64,000 bases of DNA from a virus (lineage: Duplodnaviria > Heunggongvirae > Uroviricota > Caudoviricetes), in the IMG/VR virus record IMGVR_UViG_3300039208_000295. The stretch is one strand, 5' to 3'. Numbering within the stretch: position 1 is the first letter of the stretch; each line of letters starts with the position of its first letter. The notes beneath the pieces are model-generated. The model was not told the DNA's origin and did no database searches. It saw only the letters and a program-made list of their open reading frames with translations. Made by a program: the position numbers and the translations under genes. Positions 15,645 to 28,027 of the stretch are shown here, piece by piece.

Positions 15645-15811
15645 TCTTTGCAATTGCAATTGTTGGCTGCCTTTGCCTTGGTGTTGGTTATGCCTGGGGC
15701 CGGGCAGCACAATATTCTAACGCCCGTGAACGACTTCGTCTTCGTGTGATGGAGTCTAATATTAACGGTCTTTCCGAAAACGATATTCAACGAATTCTGG
15801 ACGAACTATGA
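15641..15811 (+). CDS. Small membrane protein (56 aa)
   Basis: MIFAIAIVGCLCLGVGYAWG... ORF not in the supplied track because it is under 60 aa. Joined to the next gene by an ATGA overlap. Confidence 0.35.
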   Translation: MIFAIAIVGCLCLGVGYAWGRAAQYSNARERLRLRVMESNINGLSENDIQRILDEL

Positions 15812-16680
15812 GAAACCCTCTTACTTTTATTGTGCCCATCGTAGCCGTTCTTGGCTTCGGGCTTTTCGCGGCTATGTTTATGACCGAAACGGTCGATCCT
15901 GGACATTCTGCCGCTGGATCGATTTTTGGTGACGTTGCCGAGACGCCTCTTGGTCCTGGTTTTCATATTGTGAATCCTCTTATGGATTTCACGCACTATG
16001 ATTGCCGTCAAAAAACTCACCTTGAGGCCGGTGTTGCTGTCCCGTCGCAGGATAAGCTCGTTACGATGATGGACGTTTCGGTTCAATATCATCTTAACGA
16101 ATCGATGACACCTACCATGTTGGACAGCACGGGCGATACGGTTGCAGTGATTAACACGCACCTTATCCCTAAACTACGCAGTTTGCTTCGTGAGCAAGGT
16201 AAGACGGTAGAGCGTGCAGAAGAATTCTTCCTTGAGGAAACACAAACTGCTCTTCAGGCCAATGTCTTGAGCCACCTTTCAGAATTCTGTAACCCGAATG
16301 GTATTGCGATTGATGCTATTCTGATTCGAGATATCACGCTTCCGCAGGTTATCGTGAACGCGGTTGAACAGACGAAAGAGCGTCAAGAACAAACGGAACG
16401 TGAGCAGGCTGAATTTGAGCGTTTTGAAATTGAGCAACAAAAGCAAGTTGCTGCTGCTGCCGCTCAACGTGAAGCTGCCGAAGAAGAGGCCGCTCGTAAG
16501 CGTACGCTTGCCGATGCTGCTGCTTATGAAATCGAAACTCGTGGTCAAGCTCTTCGTGAGAACCCCGAAATTCTCCAACTTGAATCTATCCAGCGGTGGG
16601 ACGGTGTGCTCCCCCGTTTTGTTGGCGGCGAAGCCGGTAACATGCAATTTCTTATGCCTCTTGACACTAAGAACCAATAA
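15808..16680 (+). CDS. SPFH / band-7 (prohibitin-HflC-like) membrane protein
   Basis: N-terminal TM segment, the band-7 core (GFHIVNPLMDFTHYDCRQ...), and a C-terminal coiled coil rich in E, Q and A. Confidence 0.65.
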   Translation: MRNPLTFIVPIVAVLGFGLFAAMFMTETVDPGHSAAGSIFGDVAETPLGPGFHIVNPLMDFTHYDCRQKTHLEAGVAVPSQDKLVTMMDVSVQYHLNESMTPTMLDSTGDTVAVINTHLIPKLRSLLREQGKTVERAEEFFLEETQTALQANVLSHLSEFCNPNGIAIDAILIRDITLPQVIVNAVEQTKERQEQTEREQAEFERFEIEQQKQVAAAAAQREAAEEEAARKRTLADAAAYEIETRGQALRENPEILQLESIQRWDGVLPRFVGGEAGNMQFLMPLDTKNQ

Positions 16681-16694
16681 ATCTACGAAGTAAT

Positions 16695-17606
16695 ATGAAA
16701 ATCAAAGCTATCCTTTTGACCGCTCTTATGGCGGTCGTCGCCATCGGCGACACTGTTGACGCTCAGCGTCGCTCTCGTTCTCGTTCGACGAGTCGTCCTC
16801 GGATTTCGAAACCGGCAAAACCGAAGGTGTCGAAACCGAAACCGACTACGCAGCGTCGCACCACAACTACTCGCAGTAAGCCGACCACTACTGCCAAGCC
16901 GAGTGCGACTACAACGAATCGTAATACGAAGGCTACTAAGCCCTCGACTACTACGGCTCGTCCGGCTACGAAGCCCACGGCTTCGGCTAAATACGATAGT
17001 AAAGCAGCTACTGCCGCTCGTCGTTCGAGCAGCCAGGCTTCCTACCAAGCTAACAAGCAAAAGTATACTGCAAAGCAGTCGGCAAACCGTTCTCGTATCT
17101 CTAGCGTAAGCGGTAATACTGGTCGTACTTATTCGCGTAATGACTTCAATACTCGCGATACTCGTCGACAAACTGTGGTTTATAACACCTATGTTGGTCG
17201 ATCGTATCCGGGGCACTGGGGTGGTTACAATGATGGCATTAGTCCTTTCTTTTGGATGTGGATGATGTCTGAAATGAACAGCAATCAGCAAGCTGCTTAT
17301 ATCCACAATCATGGTGCTTCGCTCGATCAAGCCCGTTTGAACGAACTGTATGCTCAAAACGCTCAGCTTGAGGCTCAAGTTGCTCATCTGCGAGCTTCCG
17401 GCGTGGCTCCGGATCCGAGTGTCCTTCCGGAAGGAATGGACGCAGCTAATGCTGACCTCATGTTTAGCGATGATTTCGCAGCCGATGCCGCTGGCTTAAA
17501 TGCTCCTCTTCCGCCGGAAGAAGACGGCCTTGGTTTCTTTGGTTGGTTTATGATTCTTGTTGGTGCTGGTGGAATCATCTTCCTATTTACTAAAGTTCGA
17601 TTCTAA
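16695..17606 (+). CDS. Secreted or membrane-anchored low-complexity protein
   Basis: Signal peptide, RSRSRSTSRPRISKPAKPKVSKPKPTT repeats, Thr/Pro/Ala-rich, and a C-terminal TM segment. Confidence 0.5.
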   Translation: MKIKAILLTALMAVVAIGDTVDAQRRSRSRSTSRPRISKPAKPKVSKPKPTTQRRTTTTRSKPTTTAKPSATTTNRNTKATKPSTTTARPATKPTASAKYDSKAATAARRSSSQASYQANKQKYTAKQSANRSRISSVSGNTGRTYSRNDFNTRDTRRQTVVYNTYVGRSYPGHWGGYNDGISPFFWMWMMSEMNSNQQAAYIHNHGASLDQARLNELYAQNAQLEAQVAHLRASGVAPDPSVLPEGMDAANADLMFSDDFAADAAGLNAPLPPEEDGLGFFGWFMILVGAGGIIFLFTKVRF

Positions 17607-18220
17607 TGACCCGCACTAAACGGACTCTCTGGGGGCACCTCAGAGAGAAAGCTAAGGGACCCGTCGAATATCGACACAGTAACCCCCTTAAAGTCAAGTG
17701 TCAAGACTGTATGATGTTTGACAGCACCGGCTACTCTGGCAAGGTGTTTGCTGTAGAAGGTATTCGTGAAGTAACTCGCACTGTTCTAGAAGAAGCATTC
17801 GTGTTTACGGATTATGATCTAACAGACGGTCTTCGTCTACGTCATAACGATGGCACGCTTCTTCTACTAGAAAAAGCCAGTGAATTCGAATATGATGATA
17901 GCTTTCATCATGAGTTAAATACTGGTGAAAGTATCCATCATGAAGACTACGAAGAAAATCTTCATGAATACTGGCGAGTTAATGACGTAAAAGATTCCTT
18001 TTCGGCTGAGACACTTTTTATCTCTGATAAAAATGGTGACGGCACAGTCGAAGCCGAAGAAATTGTTCGCGGAAATATTGAATATTGGGACTATTGGCGA
18101 AAAGAGGAAGAGTCCGGTCGCCTCTATTTCGTGATCATTGAAATGGATAAAGATACCGGGTTCTTTACTGTGTGGGATGGATTTGAAACCCACGAAAACC
18201 TTATTCAGGCAGGAAAATGA
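17606..18220 (+). CDS. Hypothetical acidic protein
   Basis: 204-aa ORF. Confidence 0.45.
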   Translation: MTRTKRTLWGHLREKAKGPVEYRHSNPLKVKCQDCMMFDSTGYSGKVFAVEGIREVTRTVLEEAFVFTDYDLTDGLRLRHNDGTLLLLEKASEFEYDDSFHHELNTGESIHHEDYEENLHEYWRVNDVKDSFSAETLFISDKNGDGTVEAEEIVRGNIEYWDYWRKEEESGRLYFVIIEMDKDTGFFTVWDGFETHENLIQAGK

Positions 18221-18840
18221 TTAATAAACTTGTACTGGTCGTTAGGACTATCTTCGAATTTATTTTCGGAGGATTTATGCGAATGTTTCCGGGGCATGCT
18301 GCTCGGGCCGCTCTTCGGGAGCGTTCTGGTAACTTGGCAGAAGCTCGTCAAAATGCCGGGGCTAATCAGGGGATGATTGAGGATCTTCGGTCCGAGATTA
18401 CAGCTCAAGAAGCTGAAGAAACTGAGTGGCTTGCATCTGGTAAAAAGGCTCACGCTAATGGCGACGACGCCGAAAAGCAACGTGCTGCACGCAAGCTAAG
18501 TCGAATTCGTGAGACTCTAACCGATCTTCGTTCGCAACTAGAAACGGCCGAAGCTCGTCAGGCTGGTTACATGGAAACGCTGGCGAATGCCGGTGATCAA
18601 CTTGAAGACGATCGCCGGGACGTTCGTAGTGCTGATATGCGTAACCGCATGGCTAAAAGCGAAGCTTCACTTCAAACGGGCTTTGCCGATGATGACAATA
18701 ATTTTGATGAAGCTATGCGGAATCTCAATTCGCAGGCTAATCGTGCGGAAGGACAGGTTGCTGTTAACCGGCAACTTAAAAGTGGTCCGAAATATTCGGG
18801 CGGTGCTGGTGTAGACGACATTCTTGGAGAATTTGAATAA
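18217..18840 (+). CDS. PspA/IM30-like coiled-coil protein
   Basis: About 207 aa. The extended coiled coil and its size suggest the PspA/Vipp1 family. Confidence 0.4.
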   Translation: MINKLVLVVRTIFEFIFGGFMRMFPGHAARAALRERSGNLAEARQNAGANQGMIEDLRSEITAQEAEETEWLASGKKAHANGDDAEKQRAARKLSRIRETLTDLRSQLETAEARQAGYMETLANAGDQLEDDRRDVRSADMRNRMAKSEASLQTGFADDDNNFDEAMRNLNSQANRAEGQVAVNRQLKSGPKYSGGAGVDDILGEFE

Positions 18841-19127
18841 TGAGTAACTTTCGAAGTATTCCGGACGGCCGGGAATTCACGTATAATGGTCGCCGTTATC
18901 GTCGGCGTGGAACTCGGGCTATTGCTATGGGGGACTACGCTGATCTTGGTCACGACATTCTCGATACCGTTGTGGATTTCGTTATCCTTGACATTGTCAG
19001 CGATGGTGAACTCGATGGTGACTTTACTGTCGATTCCGAACCTGAAACTCGTGACTTCGGTGGTGGCGGGTATGAGTCTAGCTACGACAGTGGATTCGAC
19101 TCTGGCGGGTCCGATTTCGGAGACTGA
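18840..19127 (+). CDS. Hypothetical acidic protein
   Basis: 95-aa ORF. Confidence 0.4.
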   Translation: MSNFRSIPDGREFTYNGRRYRRRGTRAIAMGDYADLGHDILDTVVDFVILDIVSDGELDGDFTVDSEPETRDFGGGGYESSYDSGFDSGGSDFGD

Positions 19128-19132
19128 TTAAA

Positions 19133-19837
19133 ATGTGGTTACGCCTTCTAGTCTATATTTCAGTACTTTTTTACTTGGTTGAGCTGACCCTTGGGGCAGC
19201 GAACAGTCTAGAAGGTAATCCGTTCTTTCTGTGGACAGAACGGATGATTGCCACAGTATTTACTTGCGAATATGTCGTCCGTCTCAAGAGGGGCGGACGA
19301 CAGTACGCACGATCTGGTCTCGGTATTGTAGATGCTATTGCCGTGATCCCATTTTGGGCTGGCTTTTTTGTGCCAGCCGCTTGGCTTGGTCCTGTGCGGG
19401 CCATGCGTATTCTGCGACTACTTAAGTTATTCAGATATAATCCATCTTTACAACTAGTCGCAAGAGGCTTTAAACGTGCTTGGCCAATGTGTAGAGCACT
19501 ATCAATAGCAACACTGATTTTCTGGCTATTCTCGTCCGTTGTGATCTTTGAGCTGGAAAAGACTGCACAACCAGATGACTTCACGCTTTATCAAAGTTTC
19601 TGGTTTACAGCCGTCACGATGACGACAGTAGGGTATGGTGATATGTCTCCCCAGACTCCACCTGGGCAAGCATTCTCTATGGGGATGTTCATCGTGGCCC
19701 TGGCTTTGTATTCTGGAGTGCTTGGAACTATTGCGACAGCTCTATCAGAGGAAGTAAAAGATACTAATGAGCGATCTACTAGTGAATGTGGTACAAGTGA
19801 ACGAAGTCAAACCCCATCCGAATGCGGATCGGCTTGA
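19133..19837 (+). CDS. Potassium channel with a voltage-sensor-like S4 segment
   Basis: Selectivity filter TVGYGD in AVTMTTVGYGDMSP. An upstream Arg/Lys-periodic helix AMRILRLLKLFR resembles S4. Several TM helices. Confidence 0.7.
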   Translation: MWLRLLVYISVLFYLVELTLGAANSLEGNPFFLWTERMIATVFTCEYVVRLKRGGRQYARSGLGIVDAIAVIPFWAGFFVPAAWLGPVRAMRILRLLKLFRYNPSLQLVARGFKRAWPMCRALSIATLIFWLFSSVVIFELEKTAQPDDFTLYQSFWFTAVTMTTVGYGDMSPQTPPGQAFSMGMFIVALALYSGVLGTIATALSEEVKDTNERSTSECGTSERSQTPSECGSA

Positions 19838-20852
19838 ACTTGTTTGTATCGACGGCTGGGAAATTATTTCAGGCAAGGGTAACTATTCTGCGGGCGATAC
19901 CGTAGTACATGTTCCACCCGACGCTATGGTGCCAATGGCACGAGCCCAAGGATGGGGTGTAGACAAATACCTGTCCTTCCGTGGACAAGCCGAAATGGGC
20001 CGAGTCAAGGCCCAGAAACTACGTGGCGTAGTTAGCTTCGGCTTCCTGGTTCCTAACGATACACAATCGGAGGTCGGCACCGACCTACGCGAACATTATG
20101 GCATCGAAAAATACGAACCACCGGCACCTGGGATGGACGCTGGTAGAGTGCGTCATTGTCATCCTTTGTTTCATCGGTATACTAACATCCAAAATCTTCG
20201 AAACCATACTAGGAAACTCGATTACGAACAAGAATTAATTGTAACCGAGAAAATTCACGGTACGAATAGTCGTGTTGGATGGGTTCGGCGTCTAGATCCC
20301 GCCGAAGGCGAGTCTGAATTCGAAAAGGTTGTAGGAACCCACAATACTCAACGGAAGTTGGAAGAGTGTGGTATTTACGGACTGCCTTTTGAATTGTACG
20401 ATGACCAATTGGAACACATATTTCTTGAGGCACAAAAATACTGCCCGCCTGGTGAGCAACTAAATTCTCTAATTATTTTTGGTGAAATCTACGGTGCTGG
20501 CGTTCAAGACCTTCATTACGGTAAAAAAGAACAAAAGGGATATCGTGTTTTCGACATTACCCTGAACGGTCGATACATTCCGTGGAAGACTATGGCCGCT
20601 TTGTGCGACGTTTATCGAGTACCTACCGTAGAAGTTCTAGAACGTGGCTACTTTGGTTTCGATGACCTAAAGGCACTTGCCGAAGGCAATACTCTACACG
20701 ACGATTCGCATATTCGTGAAGGAATTGTGGTGCGTCCGTTCGACCAAGAACTAACCTGGGGTCGCACAGAACGCGTCAACGACCGTCGCATGATTTTCAA
20801 ACTAATTAATCCAGATTACTTGCTTCGCAAGGGTGGATCGGAGTATCACTGA
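19767..20852 (+). CDS. Rnl2-family RNA ligase fused to an N-terminal tRNA-binding OB domain
   Basis: Ligase motif I EKIHGTN (K-x-H-G-T). N-terminus VNEVKPHPNADRLELV matches the Trbp111 / MetRS C-terminal tRNA-binding fold (K-H-P-N-A-D-K-L). Overlaps the channel gene by 71 nt. Confidence 0.7.
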   Translation: MSDLLVNVVQVNEVKPHPNADRLELVCIDGWEIISGKGNYSAGDTVVHVPPDAMVPMARAQGWGVDKYLSFRGQAEMGRVKAQKLRGVVSFGFLVPNDTQSEVGTDLREHYGIEKYEPPAPGMDAGRVRHCHPLFHRYTNIQNLRNHTRKLDYEQELIVTEKIHGTNSRVGWVRRLDPAEGESEFEKVVGTHNTQRKLEECGIYGLPFELYDDQLEHIFLEAQKYCPPGEQLNSLIIFGEIYGAGVQDLHYGKKEQKGYRVFDITLNGRYIPWKTMAALCDVYRVPTVEVLERGYFGFDDLKALAEGNTLHDDSHIREGIVVRPFDQELTWGRTERVNDRRMIFKLINPDYLLRKGGSEYH

Positions 20853-21121
20853 TGTTTAAAGTAGAATGCGGATCTTGTGGCGGAACCGGCCTCTATAAAG
20901 GATTTGCCGAACCTGAAGGATATGCGGTGATTTGTCGCAATTGTGGTGGTAAAGGATACACGGAAGCTACCCACGTTAGCTCCGAAGCGAAAATCTTTGA
21001 ACGCCGGAAACGCAAAAATGGCATTAGATATGTTATGACAGATGGCGGTGCATGGTTTGTGCGTGGAGCGGCCAGTCAAACTCCACATATTACAATCGAC
21101 GAATTCAACGAACGTTACTAG
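20852..21121 (+). CDS. DnaJ-type CxxCxGxG zinc-finger protein
   Basis: CGSCGGTG...CRNCGGKG repeats. Confidence 0.5.
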   Translation: MFKVECGSCGGTGLYKGFAEPEGYAVICRNCGGKGYTEATHVSSEAKIFERRKRKNGIRYVMTDGGAWFVRGAASQTPHITIDEFNERY

Positions 21122-21192
21122 GGGCGTAGCCAAGTGGTAAAGGCTCTGCTCTGATAAAGCAGGATGCGGAGGTTCAATCCCTCCCGCCCCTA
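21120..21192 (+). tRNA. tRNA-Ile (anticodon GAU)
   Basis: Acceptor aggggcg pairs with cgcccct. D-arm gcc-aagtggtaaa-ggc. Anticodon arm ctgct-ctgataa-agcag. T-arm ggagg-ttcaatc-cctcc. Discriminator A, with CCA encoded. Confidence 0.7.
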
Positions 21193-21326
21193 CCAGCTCA
21201 CCGAAGGTTCGCAATGGGATGGATAACCGATATTTATATTGAGGGTAATTACCTATATGTGATTACCCGAAATATTAATGATATTTATCACGAATTAAGC
21301 TCACGAGATTTTTATAAAATTCCGTT

Positions 21327-21722
21327 ATGAGAGAGCCTAACGAAAGAGACGAAATGGTTCGGGTTATGGCCATCCAAAATGGTTGTGAACCATACTGGCA
21401 TAATGGTATTTTTGGATGGGCCTATCATTGTGGATGTGACGACGGATTGCACAATTGCGACCAACAATGTTCAATGATTGACGAAACGTCCGCAGGCCGT
21501 AAACGTAAAAAAGCGGCAGTAGCTCCTGAGCCACAAGCATTTACGTTAATTATTGAAGTTGATCCACAAAAATGTGGTGGCCGCCCGGTTATTGTTGGCA
21601 CTCGATTTCCGGTACAACAATTGTGTACCGAATTGGCTGCTGGCGAAATGACAGTAGAAGAGATCTTTGAAGATTTTGATCTTCCTAAAACAGCATACAT
21701 GAAATTTAAGGAAAGAACGTGA
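21327..21722 (+). CDS. Hypothetical Cys/His-rich protein
   Basis: 131-aa ORF. Confidence 0.4.
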   Translation: MREPNERDEMVRVMAIQNGCEPYWHNGIFGWAYHCGCDDGLHNCDQQCSMIDETSAGRKRKKAAVAPEPQAFTLIIEVDPQKCGGRPVIVGTRFPVQQLCTELAAGEMTVEEIFEDFDLPKTAYMKFKERT

Positions 21723-21743
21723 TTGGTATATACAACATCATTG

Positions 21744-21816
21744 GGCCCTGTAGCTCAGTGGTGAGAGCAGCATTCTTATAAAGTGAAGGTCGGAGGTTCA
21801 ATTCCTCCCAGGGCTA
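21744..21816 (+). tRNA. tRNA with anticodon UAU (Ile-type, would read AUA); anticodon stem imperfect
   Basis: Acceptor ggccctg pairs with cagggct. D-arm gctc-agtggtga-gagc. Loop cttataa. T-arm ggagg-ttcaatt-cctcc. Discriminator A, with CCA encoded. Confidence 0.5.
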
Positions 21817-21821
21817 CCAAT

Positions 21822-22016
21822 ATGTTAGGAACATTGACGGCGATTATCCTATATCTCATAGGTATTAGTGGATGGTATTGGGTCTTTCAAGAGGACACAA
21901 CTGTTAATCGACTACAAGTACTAATATTAGCTGTACTATGGCCAGCCGTTGTTTTTGTCATGGAAGTATTTGTGGTCATTTTTTGGTTATTCGAAAATCG
22001 TGAAAAAACATCGTAA
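21822..22016 (+). CDS. Small membrane protein
   Basis: MLGTLTAIILYLIGISGWYWVF... Internal ATG after the tRNA. Confidence 0.35.
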   Translation: MLGTLTAIILYLIGISGWYWVFQEDTTVNRLQVLILAVLWPAVVFVMEVFVVIFWLFENREKTS

Positions 22017-22305
22017 AAAATCAAAAGATCAAGATCGCCATGCCCGAGAACGCTGCAAAGAAAGATTTGGGGTTAGCCTGGACACGAACTTACTGGTAAG
22101 CAAAATTCAGAAAAATCAACTAAGTGTAATTTGTCGTCAATCGCTTAGATTAACTGTATATCGTTATGAAATTGCCGGACAAGATGCTGCTGTAGTTTAT
22201 GATAAACAACGCAAAACTATTGTTACGGTGATGCCATACGAGTGGACATTAAGTGACGATTTTCAGAACACAAGAGAAGCAAGTCCAAAATGCAGCTCAC
22301 GCTAA
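21949..22305 (+). CDS. Hypothetical protein (start uncertain)
   Basis: 118-aa ORF overlapping the previous one. No clear ATG with an SD. Confidence 0.25.
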   Translation: MFLSWKYLWSFFGYSKIVKKHRKKSKDQDRHARERCKERFGVSLDTNLLVSKIQKNQLSVICRQSLRLTVYRYEIAGQDAAVVYDKQRKTIVTVMPYEWTLSDDFQNTREASPKCSSR

Positions 22306-22450
22306 CAAAAGAGTTTATTGATTTAGTAAGAGGCGTTTATAGCGATCCAGATCCATTCTCGGTTGGATTTGCTATGGCACTTACATTAGGATCACTTACT
22401 ATCGTTCCTATTACTGTTATTGCAGATACTGTTCTGGCGATTGTTAGACA

Positions 22451-23326
22451 ATGCAAATCCACATCGTAGCTAAAGGTAACTATTTCGAGCATTACGGCAA
22501 GGCATTAACTAATGCTTGTCGTGAGCTTGGACATGATGTACACTGGTTTAAAGAGGATACTTACGAGGTGCCCTACTTTAAGGCAGATTTACATATTGTA
22601 GTTGGTCCTAATGTTTATAATCATCAAACTGTTTTACGGCTAGACGGGCACCGAGTAGGAATTCTCACCGAACAACTACCACATATTGAGGCTCCGCTCT
22701 CTCCTTTTGTTATTGACCGAGCCCAACAATTTCAACGTCATTATCCGGTATATCATCGTTATGTAGACTGGAGTGCTGCACACTGCGGCTGGCTACGAGT
22801 AACCTTTCCGGGTATTAACCTCATTTATTTTCCCCACGGCTGGATTGATCATGGGCTCACGCCCGTAAAGTCGTCAGATTGCAAATATGACATTTGTTTT
22901 CTCGGAGAGAATAGTCGCCGCCGAGAGATGATCTTAGATCAAATTAAGGCCCTCGGCCTTAGTGTGTATCCTCGAAGCAGAGGAGTTTGGGGACAAGAAA
23001 AATTAGAAGCAATTCGTAACTCTAAACTTATTCTCAATGTTCATTTCTCAGACGGCCCAAAATCATTTGAAGCTCATCGTATTTTTGATGCTGCATCATT
23101 GGGCCGCCCCTTCCTTTCAGAAGAGATGAACGCATACGGATTCGAAGACATTATTCTGCAAGCAGAATATGAAAAGATTCCCCAAAGAGCTAGAGTGTTA
23201 TTGCGAAGCAATCGACAATTAGATAAAAGAGGAAGGCTGCAAATAGAAGAATTAAGTAAGTTTAAATTAACTACGCTGATCGACGCTCTCGTAAATAATA
23301 AGGAGCACGCATATGGCGAAGGGTGA
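22451..23326 (+). CDS. Hypothetical protein
   Basis: 291-aa ORF. No confident motif. Confidence 0.45.
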   Translation: MQIHIVAKGNYFEHYGKALTNACRELGHDVHWFKEDTYEVPYFKADLHIVVGPNVYNHQTVLRLDGHRVGILTEQLPHIEAPLSPFVIDRAQQFQRHYPVYHRYVDWSAAHCGWLRVTFPGINLIYFPHGWIDHGLTPVKSSDCKYDICFLGENSRRREMILDQIKALGLSVYPRSRGVWGQEKLEAIRNSKLILNVHFSDGPKSFEAHRIFDAASLGRPFLSEEMNAYGFEDIILQAEYEKIPQRARVLLRSNRQLDKRGRLQIEELSKFKLTTLIDALVNNKEHAYGEG

Positions 23327-23987
23327 TCCTTTAGTCCGCCAGCGAATGCTTGAGCTTGGATGTGGAGATAATCCACGTCCTGAGCGTGGTTTTAGATATT
23401 GGGGCGTAGATAACGCGGAAGGTTTTGTTCCAGCTTGTCAACGCAAATTGGCTGATCAAGGGTTCGAAGTCTATACTCATACAGATTTTGTGCCCGAAAT
23501 GCGTGAAGAACGATACCCAAACATTGTTCATTTCTTTAATGGTTGTAATCTGGCGGATGGACATTCTCTTAGGAATCTATTTCCTTTAAATTGGTTCGAT
23601 AGAGTGTTGGCCGATCAGGTTTTGGAGCACATTCCGAGAGTTGCTCAAAAGACTTGGGGCAATAAGCCACAAGCAGAGACGTTTAATCCAGTAATTGCAC
23701 TACTTAATCAAATTTGGCTGGTATGTAAGTCAAATGCGTACGTACAATTTAATGTGCCAAAATGGAATAGTGCGGAAATGTGGCAAGATCCAACTCATGT
23801 AAATCCTGTCCCGCCGCAGTTTTGGAAATATTGGGATCCTGCCGATGAATGGAATTTAAAGAAGTCTTACGGAATTAATGCCAGCTTCCGCCTCGATGAG
23901 GTGGTAGACTGTGGCTGGTACCACATCTTTAGGCTTACAACGATCAAAAAACCTGAACAAGAAAGGTTTTGGCACAACAGGGAGTAG
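23313..23987 (+). CDS. Class I SAM-dependent methyltransferase-like protein
   Basis: Motif I-like LELGCGDNP. Confidence 0.5.
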   Translation: MAKGDPLVRQRMLELGCGDNPRPERGFRYWGVDNAEGFVPACQRKLADQGFEVYTHTDFVPEMREERYPNIVHFFNGCNLADGHSLRNLFPLNWFDRVLADQVLEHIPRVAQKTWGNKPQAETFNPVIALLNQIWLVCKSNAYVQFNVPKWNSAEMWQDPTHVNPVPPQFWKYWDPADEWNLKKSYGINASFRLDEVVDCGWYHIFRLTTIKKPEQERFWHNRE

Positions 23988-24052
23988 CTCAGTCTGGTTA
24001 GAGCGGGCGGTTTGGAACCGTCAGGCCGGGGGTTCAAATCCCTCCTCCCTGA
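23978..24052 (+). tRNA. tRNA-Pro (anticodon UGG)
   Basis: Acceptor cagggag pairs with ctccctg. D-arm gctc-agtctggtta-gagc. Anticodon arm ggcgg-tttggaa-ccgtc. T-arm ggggg-ttcaaat-ccctc. Discriminator A, with CCA encoded. Confidence 0.7.
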
Positions 24053-24192
24053 CCAATACATAGTATGATTGCTAAATTCGACACTTTTATGGATCGAGCC
24101 GTCAGTGGTCTCTGGCGAATTGGCGGCTTGATTATTTTCTTATGGGTGGTTAAATTGCTAGTCGCCATGTCTATGGGACTATTCGTGCTCTG

Positions 24193-24423
24193 ATGATCTG
24201 GCAAGACGCAGTTTTTGCAACCGGAACTTTGTTCATGGCAATTTCTACGTTGCCAATCATCTTTAACAAAGATTCAAAAGTTCCTCGATCGGCAAGTTTG
24301 ATCAGATCGACAGTATACACTGTATTTACATATACCTATATTTCTCTTTCTTTCTATTGGTCAGCAGCTCTTATGTTTCTTGATTTGCTCTGCTGGCTCT
24401 TTATAGCTTGGAAACGTGTGTGA
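24193..24423 (+). CDS. Small membrane protein
   Basis: 76 aa with two hydrophobic segments. Confidence 0.35.
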   Translation: MIWQDAVFATGTLFMAISTLPIIFNKDSKVPRSASLIRSTVYTVFTYTYISLSFYWSAALMFLDLLCWLFIAWKRV

Positions 24424-24425
24424 CT

Positions 24426-24499
24426 GGGTCCTTGGTGTTAACGGATAGCATAGCAGACTCTTAATCTGTCAGGTCTAGGTTCAAATCCTAGAGGACCCA
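24426..24499 (+). tRNA. tRNA-Lys (anticodon CUU)
   Basis: Acceptor gggtcct pairs with aggaccc. Anticodon arm gcaga-ctcttaa-tctgt. T-arm ctagg-ttcaaat-cctag. Discriminator A, with CCA encoded. Confidence 0.65.
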
Positions 24500-24554
24500 C
24501 CATATTTTGCTTCGCAAATAGTGTATTATCTCCTGAGGCCCACTTAATCGTGGG

Positions 24555-25403
24555 GTGTCGTATGGCATGACGTTTTTGAGGAGAAAGATAATGAGTTTAC
24601 AAGCAAGATCTGGTATTATTGAAGATAATTGGCAATTAATTCCGTTTCTAAACGTAAAGTATGGCCCTGAAGACTGGGAATACTTAGATCAATATCGCAC
24701 GCCTGGCAATTCTGGCGTAGCAGTGGTTTGGTTCCATGGTGGCGGTGGTGTCATTGGCACTAACGATATCGATGTCGCGAATCATCCGTTTGATGCATTC
24801 CGCAACGCAAAGCAGGATGTTGTATCTGTTAAATACGGCCTTTCTGACGAAGGGGCGACTTACCCAAAACAGCAGATTTCTGCTGGACGTGCCATCAAAT
24901 GGTGTTATGATGAAGGGTACACCAAGGTTGTCGTATTCGGCAACTCTTGGGGTGGCATGATTGCGGGTCTCGCTACGCTCGACGCTGATAAAGCGGCGAT
25001 TAAGCGTGCCGATGCTCAAGTTCTTTGGGGTGTTCCTACTGACTTCTGGACCGTGACAAGCCCAGACGCCAGCGGTAGTTTGCCGGCATACTTCACCGGA
25101 AATTATTCCGGTGTTGCTATTCCGCATTCGACACTAACTGAATCTCAGTTAAAAAGCGTTTCTATGTGGTGGATCGCTGAAAGCGGTCAACTGCACGTTC
25201 CGACGTTTTGTAGTTATTATAGACGAGTTGGAGTTTCTGGTGAAATCTTCAATCCGCATGATGGTTATTACGCTCAACATATCATTGACAAAATGATCGC
25301 GTTGGGTGAAACAAATACTGAATCTGAAAACACATCAAGTACCGGTGGTATCCTAGCGATTGATGCTAGTGGTATCGCTAACTGGATCGATAATCTGGGC
25401 TAA
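24555..25403 (+). CDS. Alpha/beta-hydrolase (fold-3 esterase/lipase-like)
   Basis: HGGG oxyanion motif (WFHGGGGV) and nucleophile elbow GNSWGG (G-x-S-x-G). Confidence 0.6.
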   Translation: MSYGMTFLRRKIMSLQARSGIIEDNWQLIPFLNVKYGPEDWEYLDQYRTPGNSGVAVVWFHGGGGVIGTNDIDVANHPFDAFRNAKQDVVSVKYGLSDEGATYPKQQISAGRAIKWCYDEGYTKVVVFGNSWGGMIAGLATLDADKAAIKRADAQVLWGVPTDFWTVTSPDASGSLPAYFTGNYSGVAIPHSTLTESQLKSVSMWWIAESGQLHVPTFCSYYRRVGVSGEIFNPHDGYYAQHIIDKMIALGETNTESENTSSTGGILAIDASGIANWIDNLG

Positions 25404-25415
25404 ATAGTCCATGGT

Positions 25416-25502
25416 GGGGGCGTTTACCGAGCGGTCGAAGGTATCCGGCTTTTAACCGGGCGGGCGAAAGCCCCATCGTGGGTTCGAATCCTACCGCCCT
25501 CA
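25416..25502 (+). tRNA. tRNA with anticodon UUU (Lys-type) carrying an extra GAAA hairpin in the variable region
   Basis: Acceptor gggggcg pairs with cgccctc. D-arm tacc-gagcggtcgaa-ggta. Anticodon arm tccgg-cttttaa-ccggg. A gggc-gaaa-gccc hairpin precedes the T-arm gtggg-ttcgaat-cctac. Discriminator A, with CCA encoded. Confidence 0.45.
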
Positions 25503-25555
25503 CCAACTAAATTTTACGAAGACTCTCTTGACAATACGACAAAGTCGTGTAGAAT

Positions 25556-25918
25556 GTGGACACTATGACTACGAAACGAACCAAGAAGAAGTTTCCCCTG
25601 GCGGACGTACTCACCATCGTTTGTGGCATCGAACTTGGCGAATCTGGCCGAGAGGGTGCCCTGAAAGTTGCTCGTTTTTTCATGGATGAGAAAGATATGT
25701 CCATGGAAGAGTTAGAGCAACGCGGCTATGATATTCAGCAGTTGCTTCGAATTCAATTGACGCAATTTTCACAAATTGACGCTGAGGTTGATCAATACGA
25801 GAAATTCCTAGCAGCCGCAGAAGATCAGTCACAGGCCGACTCGCTTGCGGACGATTTCGTTACGCAACAGATGCATACTCACGGAGAAACTGTAGAAGTA
25901 CATAAAATGGGGTCGTAG
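25556..25918 (+). CDS. Hypothetical acidic protein
   Basis: 120-aa ORF. The TAG stop lies inside the next tRNA. Confidence 0.4.
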   Translation: MDTMTTKRTKKKFPLADVLTIVCGIELGESGREGALKVARFFMDEKDMSMEELEQRGYDIQQLLRIQLTQFSQIDAEVDQYEKFLAAAEDQSQADSLADDFVTQQMHTHGETVEVHKMGS

Positions 25919-25982
25919 CCCAATCGGCAGAGGCAACAGACTTAAAATCTGTCAAGTGTGGGTTCGAGTCCCACCGACCCTA
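25909..25982 (+). tRNA. tRNA-Leu (anticodon UAA) with a short, class-I-like variable loop
   Basis: Acceptor ggggtcg pairs with cgaccct. D-arm gcc-caatcggcaga-ggc. Anticodon arm acaga-cttaaaa-tctgt. Variable loop caagt. T-arm gtggg-ttcgagt-cccac. Discriminator A, with CCA encoded. Confidence 0.6.
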
Positions 25983-26055
25983 CCAATCAGGTGAAGGACT
26001 TTATCCGAAGATTCGGATTTACTATTCACGTATTAGTATTCTGGATTGTCGCTTC

Positions 26056-26301
26056 TTGTCTGATAACTATAATCTTAACCTTGTTATGAATGACACCACT
26101 AACTGGATTGACGTTTATGTCAGATCTAACGACGACTTTCTTGCACGGGAACGTTGGCCTTCGGTGCTTTGCTGTCGACCATTAACCGGGGAATGTATAG
26201 AAGCAGATTCTAAAAAACTTGGTAAAGTTTGCCGTGTTACGCACCGAAGAAAATCAGATGGTTCTCCTTATTTGGAGATTGAAGTAACAAAACTAGTTTA
26301 G
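26056..26301 (+). CDS. Hypothetical small protein
   Basis: 81-aa ORF. Confidence 0.35.
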   Translation: MSDNYNLNLVMNDTTNWIDVYVRSNDDFLARERWPSVLCCRPLTGECIEADSKKLGKVCRVTHRRKSDGSPYLEIEVTKLV

Positions 26302-26308
26302 AACAAAT

Positions 26309-26381
26309 GCACGAGTAGCCCAACGGCAGAGGCACATGGCTTAGGACCATGCAAGTGTGGGTTCGAATCCCACCTCGTGTA
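26309..26381 (+). tRNA. tRNA-Leu (anticodon UAG) with a short variable loop
   Basis: Acceptor gcacgag pairs with ctcgtgt. Anticodon arm catgg-cttagga-ccatg. T-arm gtggg-ttcgaat-cccac. Discriminator A, with CCA encoded. Confidence 0.6.
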
Positions 26382-26399
26382 CCATACATTTTGTGTAAA

Positions 26400-26711
26400 A
26401 TGCCGAAAGTAACTGCACAAGACTTGGATTTTTGCGTTGAGCAAATCGTTGAAGCTGCTACCAATTGGAATACTTATCCTGGATTTGGTGGAGAACGTTG
26501 TGGTGGTTGCTATGCGGAAGCAAATGTTTTAGCTGATGGACCAGGATGGTTTTGTCCTTGTGGACATTGGAACATGCAATGCAGAAATCATCAACGTCCT
26601 CACGAAGAACCCACTTTTGGCCCCATGGCTTGTACGATCAAAAGGGCACATCGGATTGTGACTAGTGTTTATGCTGGTCACCAAAAAGGTAAAAGGTGGA
26701 TTAAAAAATGA
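26400..26711 (+). CDS. Hypothetical Cys-rich protein
   Basis: MPKVTAQDLDF... Internal ATG after the tRNA. CGGCY...CPCGHW motifs. Confidence 0.4.
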   Translation: MPKVTAQDLDFCVEQIVEAATNWNTYPGFGGERCGGCYAEANVLADGPGWFCPCGHWNMQCRNHQRPHEEPTFGPMACTIKRAHRIVTSVYAGHQKGKRWIKK

Positions 26712-27040
26712 GATTTGATAACATGAAGTCTACCGGCACACAATACTGTGGCCGTGACGTTTATGAAATGCAGACTTCGGCCAACACATTTGATAGTGGC
26801 ATCTTAATTCGTGGAAGTAAATCTCAGTTACAAAGAATTAAAAAAGCTCTCAATCGACCCGTGGGGCAATATATCGTGCTTATTAACGACGCTAATAACG
26901 CCATGCGACCCTATGGGCCATTTGAAACATATAAAGACGCACAAGAATATGTAGATAGACGTAAGCAATCGAGAGCAAGAACTGCTCCTAGTGTTCATGA
27001 GGGCAATTATATTATTCAATATCTATGTGAAGTCAAATGA
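26708..27040 (+). CDS. Hypothetical protein
   Basis: 110-aa ORF. Confidence 0.4.
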   Translation: MRFDNMKSTGTQYCGRDVYEMQTSANTFDSGILIRGSKSQLQRIKKALNRPVGQYIVLINDANNAMRPYGPFETYKDAQEYVDRRKQSRARTAPSVHEGNYIIQYLCEVK

Positions 27041-27324
27041 CAGATCATACCGAAGAAATCGCCGAGCTTGAGCAACGTGTACGTCGTCTCAAAGAAGAGC
27101 AACGTGCATTTAATAACCTATCTAAGGCACAAAAAATTGCCGATGCTCTGCACGGCAAGTTATGTCGCCAAAACCATACGGACGGATGTGGTTGGGGATA
27201 TGAAAGCTGGGATAAGCCAGGCCATGCCAAAAAAAGATATCTTGACGCAGCAGAAAAAGTGCTGCGTCAAGTGGACTATCCCCGAGCAGTAAAAATTGTG
27301 GAAGCACTTGACAGGCTTGCATAG
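27037..27324 (+). CDS. Hypothetical protein
   Basis: 95-aa ORF. Confidence 0.4.
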   Translation: MTDHTEEIAELEQRVRRLKEEQRAFNNLSKAQKIADALHGKLCRQNHTDGCGWGYESWDKPGHAKKRYLDAAEKVLRQVDYPRAVKIVEALDRLA

Positions 27325-27336
27325 CGTGATATAATG

Positions 27337-27407
27337 GGGGAGATGGTGTAATGGCAGCACGACGGTCTCATAAGCCGTTAGTTCAAGTTCGAATCTTGAT
27401 CTCCCTA
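27337..27407 (+). tRNA. tRNA-Met (anticodon CAU; elongator or Ile2-type, not an initiator)
   Basis: Acceptor ggggaga pairs with tctccct. D-arm gtgt-aatggca-gcac. Anticodon arm acggt-ctcataa-gccgt. T-arm tcaag-ttcgaat-cttga. Discriminator A, with CCA encoded. Confidence 0.6.
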
Positions 27408-27417
27408 CCAAAATAGA

Positions 27418-27606
27418 ATGACTAATAACGATAAAACTCTCTGTAATTGGTGGGAACTCCATCACTGGGGCCCTTGGGAACAAGTTCATGAAACGATTAT
27501 AGAACCCGAGGGATATGCTGACGGTGAGTATACAATTATTCAAAAACGCGTTTGTAAAAAATGCGGTTTCACTAAACTTAATAAACAATCTCAAATAATT
27601 TCTTAA
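27418..27606 (+). CDS. Small zinc-ribbon protein
   Basis: 62-aa ORF with a CKKCGF motif. Confidence 0.35.
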   Translation: MTNNDKTLCNWWELHHWGPWEQVHETIIEPEGYADGEYTIIQKRVCKKCGFTKLNKQSQIIS

Positions 27607-27608
27607 TT

Positions 27609-27941: not shown

Positions 27942-27952
27942 TCTAAAATCAG

Positions 27953-28023
27953 GGGCGATTAGTTTAATGGCAAAACTCCCGGCTTACATCCGGAAGATGG
28001 GGGTTCGATTCCCTCATCGCCTA
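27953..28023 (+). tRNA. tRNA-Val (anticodon UAC)
   Basis: Acceptor gggcgat pairs with atcgcct. D-arm gttt-aatggca-aaac. Loop cttacat. T-arm ggggg-ttcgatt-ccctc. Discriminator A, with CCA encoded. Confidence 0.6.
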
Positions 28024-28027
28024 CCAA

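What the first reader, a model, noticed from the sequence alone, without database searches (positions are those of the whole stretch)
19133..19837. Phage-encoded K+ channel with a voltage-sensor-like arginine helix, overlapping the downstream ligase gene by 71 nt
TVGYGD is the canonical potassium selectivity filter. The helix AMRILRLLKLFR upstream has basic residues at every third position, resembling an S4 segment. Phage K+ channels are rare and usually minimal (Kcv-like). A sensor-containing one would be unusual. The long out-of-frame overlap with the ligase gene also needs an explanation.
Basis: partly seen in the sequence, partly recalled or inferred. Interest (0 to 1): 0.55.

Follow-up and report, generated by a model that had tools for sequence, protein, structure and literature searches.

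The report
Phage voltage-gated potassium channel gene
A large uncultured phage encodes a complete Shaker/KvAP-type voltage-gated potassium channel, sitting in a conserved phage gene block with a PspA-like membrane-repair protein, and its 71-base overlap with the next gene is best explained as a scar from a DNA insertion.

Summary
ORF 19133-19837 encodes a 234-aa protein with the TVGYGD filter and an S4 helix. The 71-nt overlap with the downstream gene, an RNA ligase, is real.

The protein is a complete minimal 6TM Kv channel:
- Pfam Ion_trans matches over the whole profile.
- It keeps 7 of the 8 classical sensor charges plus the charge-transfer Phe.
- The AlphaFold model (pLDDT 91) superposes on Kv4.2 at TM 0.8.
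- The gene is under purifying selection.

The genome is a ~182 kb phage. The rarity claim holds for the literature, which treats viral K+ channels as pore-only. It does not hold for databases: 311 IMG/VR contigs encode relatives, and 77 of the 79 best channel ORFs checked keep the sensor.

The overlap looks like an insertion scar. Homology to four relatives stops at the ligase ATG, which is the left edge of an ~8.2 kb window-specific segment. The run-on tail is unconserved and poorly modelled.

New here: the channel sits in a conserved large-phage block (membrane protein, EF-hand protein, divergent PspA/IM30, small acidic protein, Kv). No such neighbour was found beside 149 other homologues.

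Proposed role, inferred only: controlling host membrane potential during infection.

The parts
19133..19837 (+). Kv channel gene, 234 aa, TGA stop. Helices are S1 res 2-19, S2 30-52 (helix continues to 60), S3 62-76, S4 82-102, S4-S5 linker 104-117, S5 119-142, pore helix 152-164, S6 176-205.
   Evidence: ORF. Pfam Ion_trans 91.6 bits over the full profile. AF2 pLDDT 91.3 with this helix layout. Foldseek to Kv4.2 gives TMq 0.80-0.82. Purifying selection.
19376..19438 (+). S4 voltage-sensor helix (res 82-102) with R89, R92, R95, K98, R101. These correspond to Shaker R2, R3, R4, K5, R6. The R1 position is G86.
   Evidence: The Kv4.2 alignment puts these on Kv4.2's S4 R/R/R/K/R. R89, R92 and R101 are at least 90% conserved and K98 is invariant in 38 homologues. 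The Shaker numbering comes from my own knowledge.
19238..19333 (+). S2-S3 counter-charges and charge-transfer centre: E36, F43, E46, R50 (S2) and D67 (S3).
   Evidence: R50 and D67 are invariant and E46 is at least 90% conserved in alignment A1. F43 is present in 76 of 79, E/D46 in 77 of 79 and D67 in 77 of 79 viral relatives.
19625..19642 (+). K+ selectivity filter TVGYGD (res 165-170), within TMTTVGYGDMSP.
   Evidence: Read directly from the sequence. VGYGD is invariant in 38 homologues.
19767..19837 (+). 71-nt out-of-frame overlap of the channel 3' end with the RNA ligase 5' end. It encodes the channel's unique tail (about res 213-234, STSECGTSERSQTPSECGSA).
   Evidence: The tail is absent from relatives, which end 8-10 codons after the breakpoint. 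pLDDT is 51-60 in the tail. DNA homology to L001, L002, L089 and L090 ends at 19739-19770.
19767..20852 (+). RNA ligase gene (361 aa), the first gene of the window-specific segment.
   Evidence: PF09414 1.9e-18 and PF21189 1.3e-12. PHROG 968 7.4e-49. Phage homologues align from residue 1.
19767..28037 (.). About 8.2 kb segment absent from relatives, holding the RNA ligase, small ORFs and 9-10 tRNA genes. Synteny resumes at the Zn-ribbon gene near 28.04-28.30 kb.
   Evidence: Protein synteny. tRNA genes. The corresponding gap is about 1.2 kb in L001 and about 0.4 kb in L002.
18217..18840 (+). Divergent PspA/IM30 (ESCRT-III superfamily) protein, 207 aa, two genes upstream of the channel.
   Evidence: hhalign against five phage PspA proteins gives 95.5% probability, E 1.6e-8 over 164 columns. 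The top nine Foldseek PDB hits are Vipp1/PspA. An HMM built from other phage PspA proteins hits this family at 9e-9 to 2e-5. No Pfam hit.
17606..18220 (+). 204-aa protein with a conserved EF-hand-type loop DKNGDGTVEAEE (res 141-152, nt 18026-18061).
   Evidence: The loop D-x-[DN]-x-[DN]-G-x-V-x-x-x-E is conserved in six orthologues. Pfam EF-hand match is weak, E 0.06. Orthologues lie next to the channel in L001, L002, L008, L012 and L017.
16695..17606 (+). 303-aa membrane protein with an N-terminal signal/TM helix, a long basic low-complexity region and a C-terminal TM helix.
   Evidence: Sequence. Orthologues lie upstream of the channel in L001, L002, L008, L012 and L017.
18840..19127 (+). 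95-aa acidic protein rich in G, S, D and Y, immediately upstream of the channel.
   Evidence: ORF. Orthologues in L001, L002 and L089.
15808..16680 (+). SPFH/Band 7 protein (290 aa) at the head of the same-strand gene run.
   Evidence: PF01145 2.2e-19. PHROG 200 1.2e-49.

Best explanation
ORF 19133-19837 encodes a functional, minimal (234 aa, no cytoplasmic domain) homotetrameric voltage-gated K+ channel of the Shaker/KvAP 6TM type. It is carried by a ~182 kb lytic-type phage, possibly of Planctomycetota. Shown: the family, the topology, the filter, a near-complete sensor, purifying selection and the phage context. Inferred: the protein inserts into the host cytoplasmic membrane during infection. 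S4 (R89, R92, R95, K98, R101) moves past the F43/E46/D67 charge-transfer centre when the membrane potential changes and, through the S4-S5 linker, opens the S6 gate so that K+ flows through TVGYGD. My preferred physiological reading is inferred and untested. The channel would be depolarisation-activated and act as a repolarising valve. It would work with the co-encoded PspA-like, SPFH and EF-hand proteins to keep the infected cell's membrane sealed and polarised until programmed lysis, for example against infection-induced leak, premature holin triggering or depolarising abortive-infection effectors. The 71-nt overlap is a by-product of the insertion or replacement of an ~8.2 kb RNA-ligase and tRNA segment whose left junction lies at the ligase ATG. 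The junction removed the channel's last 8-10 codons and its stop codon, so the ORF runs 22 codons into the ligase gene in another frame. This adds a disordered tail that is probably neutral.
For: - Identity: Pfam Ion_trans 91.6 bits over the full profile. phmmer against PDB gives Kv4.2 1e-18, Kv2.1, Kv1.2-2.1, and KvAP 1orq/2a0l 7.5e-9 to 3.4e-8 over residues 9-203. The AF2 model has pLDDT 91.3 with S1-S6 and a pore helix. Whole-subunit TM to Kv4.2 is 0.80-0.82.
- Sensor: R89, R92, R95, K98 and R101 align to the Kv4.2 S4 charges. E36, F43, E46, R50 and D67 are conserved.
- Benchmark: KvLm has only 3 of 8 conserved charges and is still steeply voltage-gated (PMC2151563 and PMC2585861 abstracts). 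This protein has 7 of 8.
- Selection: dN/dS is 0.07-0.18 among relatives. Against the window's copy pN is 0.16-0.19 while pS is 0.80-0.88.
- Phage context.
- Module: PspA(-like) lies within 6 kb of the channel in 5 of 5 assessable close relatives and in 7 of 14 loci of the large-phage subfamily. It was found beside none of 67 other viral, 4 cellular same-subfamily and 78 other cellular loci (Pfam confirmation; hhalign; fold).
- Overlap: DNA homology to four relatives ends at 19739-19770. Synteny resumes near 28.04 kb. None of the relatives has the ligase or a long overlap. An off-frame run of at least 22 codons has P = 0.21 in this genome. The tail has pLDDT 51-60.
Against: - No functional data exist. 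Gating polarity, conductance, membrane targeting and timing of expression are unknown.
- Tetramer assembly was not modelled.
- R1 is missing (G86) and the S3-S4 loop is very short, so gating could be atypical.
- The repolarising-valve role rests only on gene neighbourhood. The PspA assignment of the window's own neighbour relies on profile-profile and fold evidence, not on a Pfam hit.
- SPFH was found next to the module only in this phage.
- Five of the seven PspA hits in the large-phage subfamily were used to build the HMM, and the loci are not phylogenetically independent.
- The 'independent' assembly L088 may derive from the same sample.
- The Planctomycetota host link rests on two MAG contigs and one rough NJ tree.
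Confidence: 0.72

Rival explanations
1. The channel is hyperpolarisation-activated, as I recall for the archaeal 6TM channel MVP and plant KAT1-type inward rectifiers. It would serve K+ uptake or retention, replenishing K+ lost at infection so that translation and replication can proceed.
For: Sequence alone cannot give gating polarity, because the same S4 and charge-transfer-centre architecture is used by channels of both polarities (my own knowledge). Bacterial resting potentials are very negative, so a depolarisation-activated channel would be shut most of the time. [quoted passage not shown]
Against: The best sequence and structure matches are depolarisation-activated Kv4, Kv2, Kv1 and KvAP. 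The PspA/SPFH neighbourhood fits membrane-stress management at least as well. Nothing here tests polarity.
Confidence: 0.18
2. The sensor is vestigial, or the channel is effectively a leak. Its job would be to dissipate host K+ and turgor, for host shut-off, superinfection exclusion or lysis timing, analogous to the K+ efflux caused by chlorovirus Kcv.
For: Viral K+ channels studied so far act by K+ efflux or depolarisation (PMC12332018 and PMC6163359). R1 is lost (G86) in this clade and in most of the large-phage subfamily.
Against: Seven of eight sensor charges plus the charge-transfer Phe are kept under purifying selection across clades at only 37-47% identity, which is hard to explain for a vestigial domain. 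Opening a K+-selective pore drives the membrane towards E_K, so it hyperpolarises rather than depolarises. Co-encoded PspA is a membrane-sealing protein, not a membrane-breaching one.
Confidence: 0.08
3. The 71-nt overlap is functional. It would couple or throttle ligase translation to channel translation, or allow a frameshift product.
For: No promoter or terminator signal separates the genes. The genes upstream are tightly packed with 1-4 nt overlaps. The ligase start has no clear Shine-Dalgarno sequence.
Against: No relative shows the arrangement: five related contigs have other small genes downstream, with overlaps of 4 nt or less. Homology breaks at the ligase ATG. The tail is unconserved and disordered. 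The run-on length is what chance gives (P = 0.21). The channel stop lies 68 nt downstream of the ligase ATG, too far for termination-reinitiation coupling (established knowledge).
Confidence: 0.06
4. The gene is cellular, not viral, and reached the contig through mis-assembly, binning contamination or a prophage flank.
For: Cellular Planctomycetota and TARA contigs carry 41-44% identical channels. Many of the weaker IMG/VR hits sit close to the ends of prophage-sized contigs.
Against: The gene lies in the interior of a gene-dense phage region flanked by tRNA arrays and phage genes. The five-gene block is syntenic in a 175.5 kb contig and in several fragments. A second assembly is identical. 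The closest cellular homologue is only 44% identical, against 70-78% for phage relatives.
Confidence: 0.03

Closest known systems
KvAP (Aeropyrum pernix) and other minimal prokaryotic 6TM Kv channels
   Same: Both have S1-S6 with no cytoplasmic regulatory domain, a canonical GYGD filter and an S4 with basic residues every third position. Sequence matches to 1orq, 2a0l and 6uwm span residues 9-203 or 9-224 at E 1e-9 to 3e-8.
   Different: The gene is carried by a phage. The protein is shorter (234 aa against 223-287 aa crystallised constructs of a ~295 aa protein, the latter from my own knowledge). The S3-S4 loop is very short and R1 is absent. It matches eukaryotic Kv4, Kv2 and Kv1 better than KvAP by sequence (1e-18 against 1e-9). 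The whole-chain fit to Kv4.2, which I recall as domain-swapped, is TM 0.8.
Eukaryotic Shaker-family Kv channels (Kv4.2, Kv2.1, Kv1.2)
   Same: These are the best sequence and structure matches. The filter region TMTTVGYGDM is identical to Shaker's (my own knowledge). The S2 E/F/E/R, S3 D and S4 R2-R6 positions are shared.
   Different: There is no T1 domain, no N- or C-terminal regulatory region and no PVP motif in S6, where G195/G198 sit instead. Identity is only 21-26%.
KvLm (Listeria monocytogenes)
   Same: Both are small prokaryote-type, depolarisation-activated Kv channels without accessory domains (PMC2151562).
   Different: KvLm keeps only 3 of the 8 conserved sensor charges (PMC2151563, PMC2585861). 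This protein keeps 7 of 8.
Kcv and other miniature viral K+ channels (chloroviruses, EsV-1 Kesv, 2TM phage channels)
   Same: Both are virus-encoded and share the K+ filter and pore-module fold. BFVD returns them as partial matches.
   Different: They are pore-only 2TM proteins of roughly 80-125 aa without a sensor (PMC12332018, PMC6163359). This protein has a complete S1-S4 domain. The matches cover only the pore, at E 0.03 or worse and TMq 0.41 or lower.
Phage 'ion transport protein' genes (PHROG 7872; Lactobacillus phage PLE2, Listeria, Enterococcus and Acinetobacter phage records)
   Same: Same Pfam family, also phage-borne. PHROG 7872 matches at 1.8e-28 over residues 5-221. tblastn identity is 24-35%.
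   Different: They are only distantly related. Most sit on prophage-sized contigs near a contig end, retain R1 and have no PspA, EF-hand or membrane-protein neighbours (0 of 67). PHROG lists the family's function as unknown.
PspA/IM30/Vipp1 (for the neighbouring 207-aa gene)
   Same: Helix layout of alpha0, a long hairpin, then alpha4 and alpha5. The top fold hits are Vipp1 and PspA, and E. coli PspA 1-144 fits at rmsd 1.4 A. hhalign gives 95.5% against phage PspA proteins.
   Different: It falls below every Pfam threshold. Only five homologues exist, all in this phage clade.

Membership tests
Voltage-gated K+ channel, 6TM (Pfam PF00520 Ion_trans; VIC superfamily) | Ion_trans profile match above the curated cut-off, covering S1-S6 | tested here: met
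   91.6 bits against a cut-off of 25, profile positions 5-239 of 241
Voltage-gated K+ channel, 6TM | K+ selectivity signature T-V-G-Y-G-D after a pore helix, flanked by two TM helices | tested here: met
   TVGYGD at residues 165-170. S5 119-142, pore helix 152-164 and S6 176-205 in the pLDDT-91 model. Hydropathy agrees.
Voltage-gated K+ channel, 6TM | S4 with at least four basic residues at every third position | tested here: met
   R89, R92, R95, K98 and R101 aligned to the Kv4.2 S4 charges and conserved. The R1 position is G86.
Voltage-gated K+ channel, 6TM | Acidic counter-charges in S2 and S3 and the aromatic charge-transfer-centre residue | tested here: met
   E36, F43, E46 (S2) and D67 (S3). 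D67 is invariant and E46 at least 90% conserved. F43 is in 76 of 79 and D67 in 77 of 79 viral relatives.
Voltage-gated K+ channel, 6TM | Whole-subunit fold equivalent to solved Kv structures | tested here: met
   Foldseek against PDB: Kv4.2 TMq 0.80-0.82, E 5e-9. All top 50 hits are Kv channels.
Voltage-gated K+ channel, 6TM | Assembly as a tetramer around a central pore | not tested
   Only a monomer could be predicted, and the structure jobs were exhausted.
Voltage-gated K+ channel, 6TM | Voltage-dependent, K+-selective conductance | not testable with these tools
   Needs electrophysiology or a flux assay.
Kcv-type miniature viral K+ channels | Pore-only 2TM subunit of about 80-125 aa without a sensor domain | tested here: not met
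   234 aa with six TM helices. BFVD miniature channels match only the pore, at E 0.03 or worse.
Phage-encoded gene (as opposed to cellular) | Embedded in a phage genome and syntenic in related phage genomes | tested here: met
   182 kb contig. Phage gene content and 23 tRNA genes. Five-gene synteny with a 175.5 kb contig and with fragments. No virion gene was examined within 20 kb, and no isolate exists.
PspA/IM30 family (neighbour gene 18217-18840) | Pfam PF04012 match above the gathering score | tested here: not met
   No PF04012 hit even at E up to 5.
PspA/IM30 family (neighbour gene 18217-18840) | Profile-level homology and the ESCRT-III-type helical hairpin fold | tested here: met
   hhalign 95.5%, E 1.6e-8. 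An HMM of other phage PspA proteins hits at 9e-9. Top nine fold hits are Vipp1/PspA, E 1e-3 to 2e-2. The model is of moderate quality, pLDDT 72.
Selected or programmed long gene overlap | Overlap conserved in related genomes | tested here: not met
   L001, L002-4, L089 and L090 have no ligase downstream and overlaps of 4 nt or less. Homology breaks at the ligase ATG.

The most novel reading that the evidence does not exclude
Large phages, possibly of Planctomycetota, carry a dedicated and previously undescribed membrane-potential control cassette. Its parts are a canonical voltage-gated K+ channel, a PspA/ESCRT-III-like membrane sealer, a single-EF-hand protein that could be a Ca2+-sensing auxiliary subunit, a bitopic basic membrane protein and sometimes an SPFH scaffold. 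With it the virus would actively clamp the electrical state of the infected cell. That would be the first natural viral ion channel with a voltage sensor tied to a defined infection function.
Probability: 0.3. Interest if true: 0.72.

Novelty: new member of a known kind. Interest (0 to 1): 0.45.

Why it matters
Published work on viral K+ channels treats them as sensor-less pore modules. Those studies use them as models for how complex channels evolved, and a voltage sensor has even been fused artificially to Kcv (PMC3581695; PMC12332018). Here a virus carries a natural, very compact Kv channel (234 aa) with a near-complete sensor, and hundreds of related viral genes sit uncharacterised in databases. 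That gives structural and biophysical work a minimal Kv candidate. Through the specific linkage to PspA-like and EF-hand genes, it also gives a concrete, testable hypothesis that large phages manage host membrane potential. The physiological role of prokaryotic Kv channels is itself largely unknown, so a phage context with a defined infection timeline could make it approachable.

Tried and rejected
- Megablast of 7 kb against 50,697 phage genomes found no match, so the phage has no close sequenced relative.
- BFVD fold search found no 6TM viral model, only pore-only channels at E 0.03 or worse.
- For the 207-aa neighbour, Pfam at E up to 5, BLASTP against one PspA (E 2.7), a profile search of PDB sequences (Snf7, E 0.22) and hhalign against three PspA proteins (probability 10.6%) were all inconclusive. 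The question was resolved only with five phage PspA proteins.
- The promoter and terminator scan of 15-22 kb gave fewer sites than shuffled sequence, so no transcription-unit boundaries could be called.
- The listing of cluster members returned no organism names.
- Six literature searches found no description of a phage voltage-sensor K+ channel. The library does not cover subscription-only papers, so absence is not proof.
- Sequencing or assembly frameshift as the cause of the long tail: rejected, because a second assembly is identical and the frame is continuous from the conserved S6.
- Stop-codon recoding as the cause: rejected, because the channel ends in TGA while the only suppressor tRNA reads TAG.
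- A downstream alternative ligase start that removes the overlap: rejected, because the OB-fold domain starts at residue 5 and homologues align from residue 1. The GTG alternatives still overlap by 41-56 nt.
- Membership in the Kcv-like family: rejected on architecture.
Full report
**Observation**

The ORF at 19133-19837 (+) is real. It starts with ATG, ends with TGA and gives 234 aa. TVGYGD is residues 165-170.

The next gene, 19767-20852, begins inside channel codon 212 in the +1 frame, which gives a 71-nt overlap. It is an RNA ligase, with PF09414 and an N-terminal PHA02142 OB-fold domain starting at residue 5 and PHROG 968 at 7e-49. Annotated phage RNA ligases align from its first residue, and a homologue in L019 has an N-terminus of similar length, so the ATG is the credible start. 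Even the GTG chosen by another gene caller leaves 56 nt of overlap. A second assembly (L088) is 100% identical over 4.1 kb including the junction.

**What the protein is**

It is a whole 6TM voltage-gated-type channel, not a pore with a stray basic helix.

- Pfam Ion_trans scores 91.6 bits over profile positions 5-239 of 241.
- The best solved-structure sequence matches are Kv4.2 (1e-18), Kv2.1, the Kv1.2-2.1 chimera, Shaker, KCNQ, and KvAP over residues 9-203.
- An AlphaFold2 model built on 38 homologues has pLDDT 91.3. Its helices are 2-19 (S1), 30-60 (S2), 62-76 (S3), 82-102 (S4), 104-142 (linker plus S5), 152-164 (pore helix) and 176-224 (S6 and extension).
- The whole subunit superposes on Kv4.2 at TM 0.80-0.82, and all top 50 PDB hits are Kv channels.
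- Segment hydropathy agrees with this layout.

That criterion is not met, so the finding stands.

**The sensor**

In the Kv4.2 alignment, R89, R92, R95, K98 and R101 fall on Kv4.2's S4 R/R/R/K/R. In Shaker numbering (my own knowledge) these are R2, R3, R4, K5 and R6. R1 is G86.

S2 carries E36, F43, E46 and R50, and S3 carries D67. These are the outer and inner acidic counter-charges and the charge-transfer-centre Phe. D67, R50 and K98 are invariant, and E46, R89, R92 and R101 are at least 90% conserved among 38 homologues.

So 7 of the 8 classical charged positions are present. For comparison, KvLm has only 3 of 8 and is still steeply voltage-dependent (PMC2151563 and PMC2585861).

The gene is under purifying selection. 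dN/dS is 0.07-0.18 where synonymous sites are not saturated. Against the window's copy, pN is 0.16-0.19 while pS is 0.80-0.88.

**Is it phage-borne, and how unusual is that?**

The exact protein lies on a 182 kb contig. The window holds 23 tRNA genes. It also holds RNR, NAMPT, a CCA-adding enzyme, a DNA ligase, a T4-Rnl1-like ligase, PhoH, peptide deformylase, thymidylate synthase and a virion-protein match. No sequenced phage is close at the DNA level.

Relatives at 70-78% identity occur on a 175.5 kb contig and on several fragments, with the same four upstream genes.

The published view is that viral K+ channels are miniature pore modules. Greiner et al. 2018 list mostly 2TM phage channels, plus a 228-aa Vibrio phage set and a 259-aa Lactobacillus phage PLE protein with four predicted TMs, and never mention voltage. 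The 2025 review PMC12332018 calls viral K+ channel monomers minimal at under 100 aa, says Kcv lacks a sensor domain, and does not mention bacteriophages.

Databases tell a different story.
- PHROG 7872 ('unknown function') matches at 1.8e-28.
- Twelve GenBank phage records carry 24-35% identical 'ion transport protein' genes.
- 311 IMG/VR contigs encode a relative.
- 79 of the 80 best loci yielded a channel ORF, and 77 of those 79 keep 4-6 S4 charges together with the Phe/Glu/Asp triad. One retrieval pattern was the S4 motif itself, which biases this count upward.

The gene is therefore a new member of a known, under-described class and not a singular oddity.

**Origin**

Among 185,579 species genomes, only two contigs exceed 40% identity, and both are Planctomycetota MAGs. 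One of them is clearly chromosomal, with ThiG, glutathionylspermidine synthase, BatA/VWA and DUF58 as neighbours. All other genomes are at 34% or below.

Those two channels are 65-71% identical to the channel on a 340 kb, ORFan-rich IMG/VR contig. A rough NJ tree puts the window's clade in a subfamily made mostly of 83-408 kb viral contigs, with three cellular sequences interleaved. This suggests repeated exchange between host and phage, and tentatively a Planctomycetota host.

**The overlap**

DNA similarity between the window and L001, L002, L089 and L090 ends at window positions 19765, 19739, 19770 and 19764. That is at the ligase ATG, 19767. Protein synteny resumes only at about 28.04 kb, at the Zn-ribbon gene.

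The ligase is therefore the first gene of an ~8.2 kb window-specific segment that also holds 9-10 tRNA genes. In the relatives the equivalent gap is 0.4-1.2 kb of small ORFs, with overlaps of 4 nt or less.

The relatives' channels end 8-10 codons past the breakpoint, for example '...ETNERKLDIAA'. The window's copy reads 22 further codons of ligase sequence in another frame ('STSECGTSERSQTPSECGSA') before reaching TGA. That tail is unconserved and has pLDDT 51-60. An off-frame run of at least 22 codons occurs with P = 0.21 in this genome's genes.

The simplest reading is a recombination scar on a dispensable cytoplasmic tail. Stop-codon recoding is not involved: the stop is TGA, and the only suppressor tRNA has a CUA anticodon. 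A regulatory consequence, such as ribosomes on the channel mRNA occluding the ligase start, cannot be excluded, but nothing indicates selection for it.

**Neighbourhood**

The channel is the last gene of a tightly packed same-strand run.

| Coordinates | Product |
|---|---|
| 15808-16680 | SPFH/Band 7 |
| 16695-17606 | 303-aa membrane protein |
| 17606-18220 | 204-aa protein |
| 18217-18840 | 207-aa coiled-coil protein |
| 18840-19127 | 95-aa acidic protein |
| 19133-19837 | Kv channel |

The ORFs come and the SPFH assignment. No promoter or terminator signal exceeds the shuffled expectation.

The 204-aa protein has a canonical EF-hand loop, DKNGDGTVEAEE. The pattern D-x-[DN]-x-[DN]-G-x-V-x-x-x-E is conserved in six orthologues whose channels are only 37-47% identical to the window's in the more distant cases.

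The 207-aa protein has only five homologues, all in this clade, and no Pfam hit. Other evidence identifies it:
- The model shows alpha0, a long hairpin, then alpha4 and alpha5.
- The top nine PDB fold hits are Vipp1/PspA, including E. coli PspA 1-144 at rmsd 1.4 A.
- hhalign against five phage PspA proteins gives 95.5% probability, E 1.6e-8.
- Its positional equivalent in L017 is a true PspA_IM30 (36.5 bits against a 33.9 cut-off), and true PspA genes lie beside the channel in L010, L018 and L005.

HMM searches of the flanking DNA of all loci fetched up to that point give the distribution:

| Group of loci | PspA(-like) within ~6 kb of the channel |
|---|---|
| Assessable window-clade loci | 5 of 5 |
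| Large-phage subfamily | 7 of 14 |
| Other IMG/VR loci | 0 of 67 |
| Cellular, same subfamily | 0 of 4 |
| Other cellular genomes | 0 of 78 |

Two caveats apply. Five of the seven subfamily hits were used to build the HMM, and the loci are not independent.

**Mechanism**

Shown: the family, the topology, the filter, the sensor residues, selection, the phage context and the gene linkage.

Inferred: the protein tetramerises in the host inner membrane, and S4 movement past the F43/E46/D67 centre gates a K+-selective pore. I favour a depolarisation-activated channel that drives the membrane back towards E_K. Together with the PspA-like sealer and the SPFH scaffold, it would keep the infected cell energised until lysis.

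Rivals are a hyperpolarisation-activated K+ uptake channel and a leak or efflux device. Only electrophysiology can decide between them.

**Verdict**

The observation and the interpretation are confirmed. The rarity claim is overstated with respect to databases but fair with respect to the literature. The overlap is best explained as an insertion scar. The channel itself is an ordinary, if elegantly minimal, Kv channel. The phage-specific PspA/EF-hand/Kv block is the part worth following up.

Noticed in passing
window 2045-2121; also L016 7409-7480: A tRNA with a CUA anticodon (called 'Pyl' by ARAGORN, so an amber-suppressor type) sits among the window's 23 tRNA genes. Another lies about 1 kb from the channel homologue in a 179 kb IMG/VR contig. 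This may indicate TAG recoding in these phages. The channel itself ends in TGA.
   Followed up: partly
window 1503-29659: A 23-gene tRNA island spans about 28 kb and surrounds the membrane-gene block. The 6-10 kb flanks of the channel in relatives L001 and L002 contain no tRNA genes.
   Followed up: partly
window 17606-18220 (loop at 18026-18061): The 204-aa protein has a canonical single EF-hand loop, DKNGDGTVEAEE, conserved in six orthologues that all lie next to the channel. It could be a Ca2+-binding partner. Pfam support is only E 0.06.
   Followed up: partly
window 18217-18840: A divergent PspA/IM30 (ESCRT-III superfamily) protein is invisible to Pfam and has only five homologues in 5.8 billion proteins. 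It was recognised through profile-profile comparison, fold and gene position.
   Followed up: yes
window 15808-16680: An SPFH/Band 7 protein (PF01145 2e-19; PHROG 200, labelled 'lipoprotein') heads the same-strand gene run. It was not found in the fetched DNA around the channel at the other loci, apart from the identical L088.
   Followed up: partly
window 16695-17606 and 16683-17387 (-): The 303-aa protein has a signal/TM helix, a ~130-residue basic region rich in S, T, R, K and P, and a C-terminal TM helix. It is conserved upstream of the channel in L001, L002, L008, L012 and L017. The 234-aa antisense ORF over it is probably a low-complexity artefact.
   Followed up: partly
window 5591-6709, 19767-20852, 31772-33109, 34292-35365: The window carries a nucleic-acid repair set: an ATP-dependent DNA ligase, two different RNA ligases (one Rnl with a PHA02142 OB-fold domain and one T4 Rnl1/gp63-like) and a CCA-adding tRNA nucleotidyltransferase. 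This suggests a tRNA-repair capability alongside the tRNA island.
   Followed up: no
window 15783-20860 (start-codon contexts): Genes of the block have A/T-rich sequence immediately upstream of the ATG, and most show no clear Shine-Dalgarno motif. The channel start has a GGAG 10 nt upstream. This may fit a host that relies little on SD-led initiation. I did not analyse it statistically.
   Followed up: no
L009 (IMG/VR contig, 340 kb) against L091 and L092: The channel on a 340 kb ORFan-rich viral contig is 65-71% identical to chromosomal channels of two Planctomycetota MAGs. This points to recent host-phage exchange and gives a possible host clue for this phage group.
   Followed up: partly
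L005 16090-18687 and 19367-19747: Another large phage carrying a 45%-identical channel also encodes an 865-aa protein with Vault/MVP-shoulder domain hits and a MerC-like protein, near a true PspA.
   Followed up: no
L019 7828-8928: A homologue of the same RNA ligase (31% identity) lies about 1.2 kb downstream of the channel homologue in an unrelated 83 kb viral contig. This is probably coincidental co-location in an accessory region.
   Followed up: no
window 18840-19127; L017 (ORF upstream of the channel): A small acidic protein has a C-terminal G/S/D/Y-rich tail (DFGGGGYESSYDSGFDSGGSDFGD). A similar tail (GSSGDTGGWGGGDSGGSSYDSGGSYDSGG) ends a larger protein in the equivalent region of L017.
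   Followed up: no
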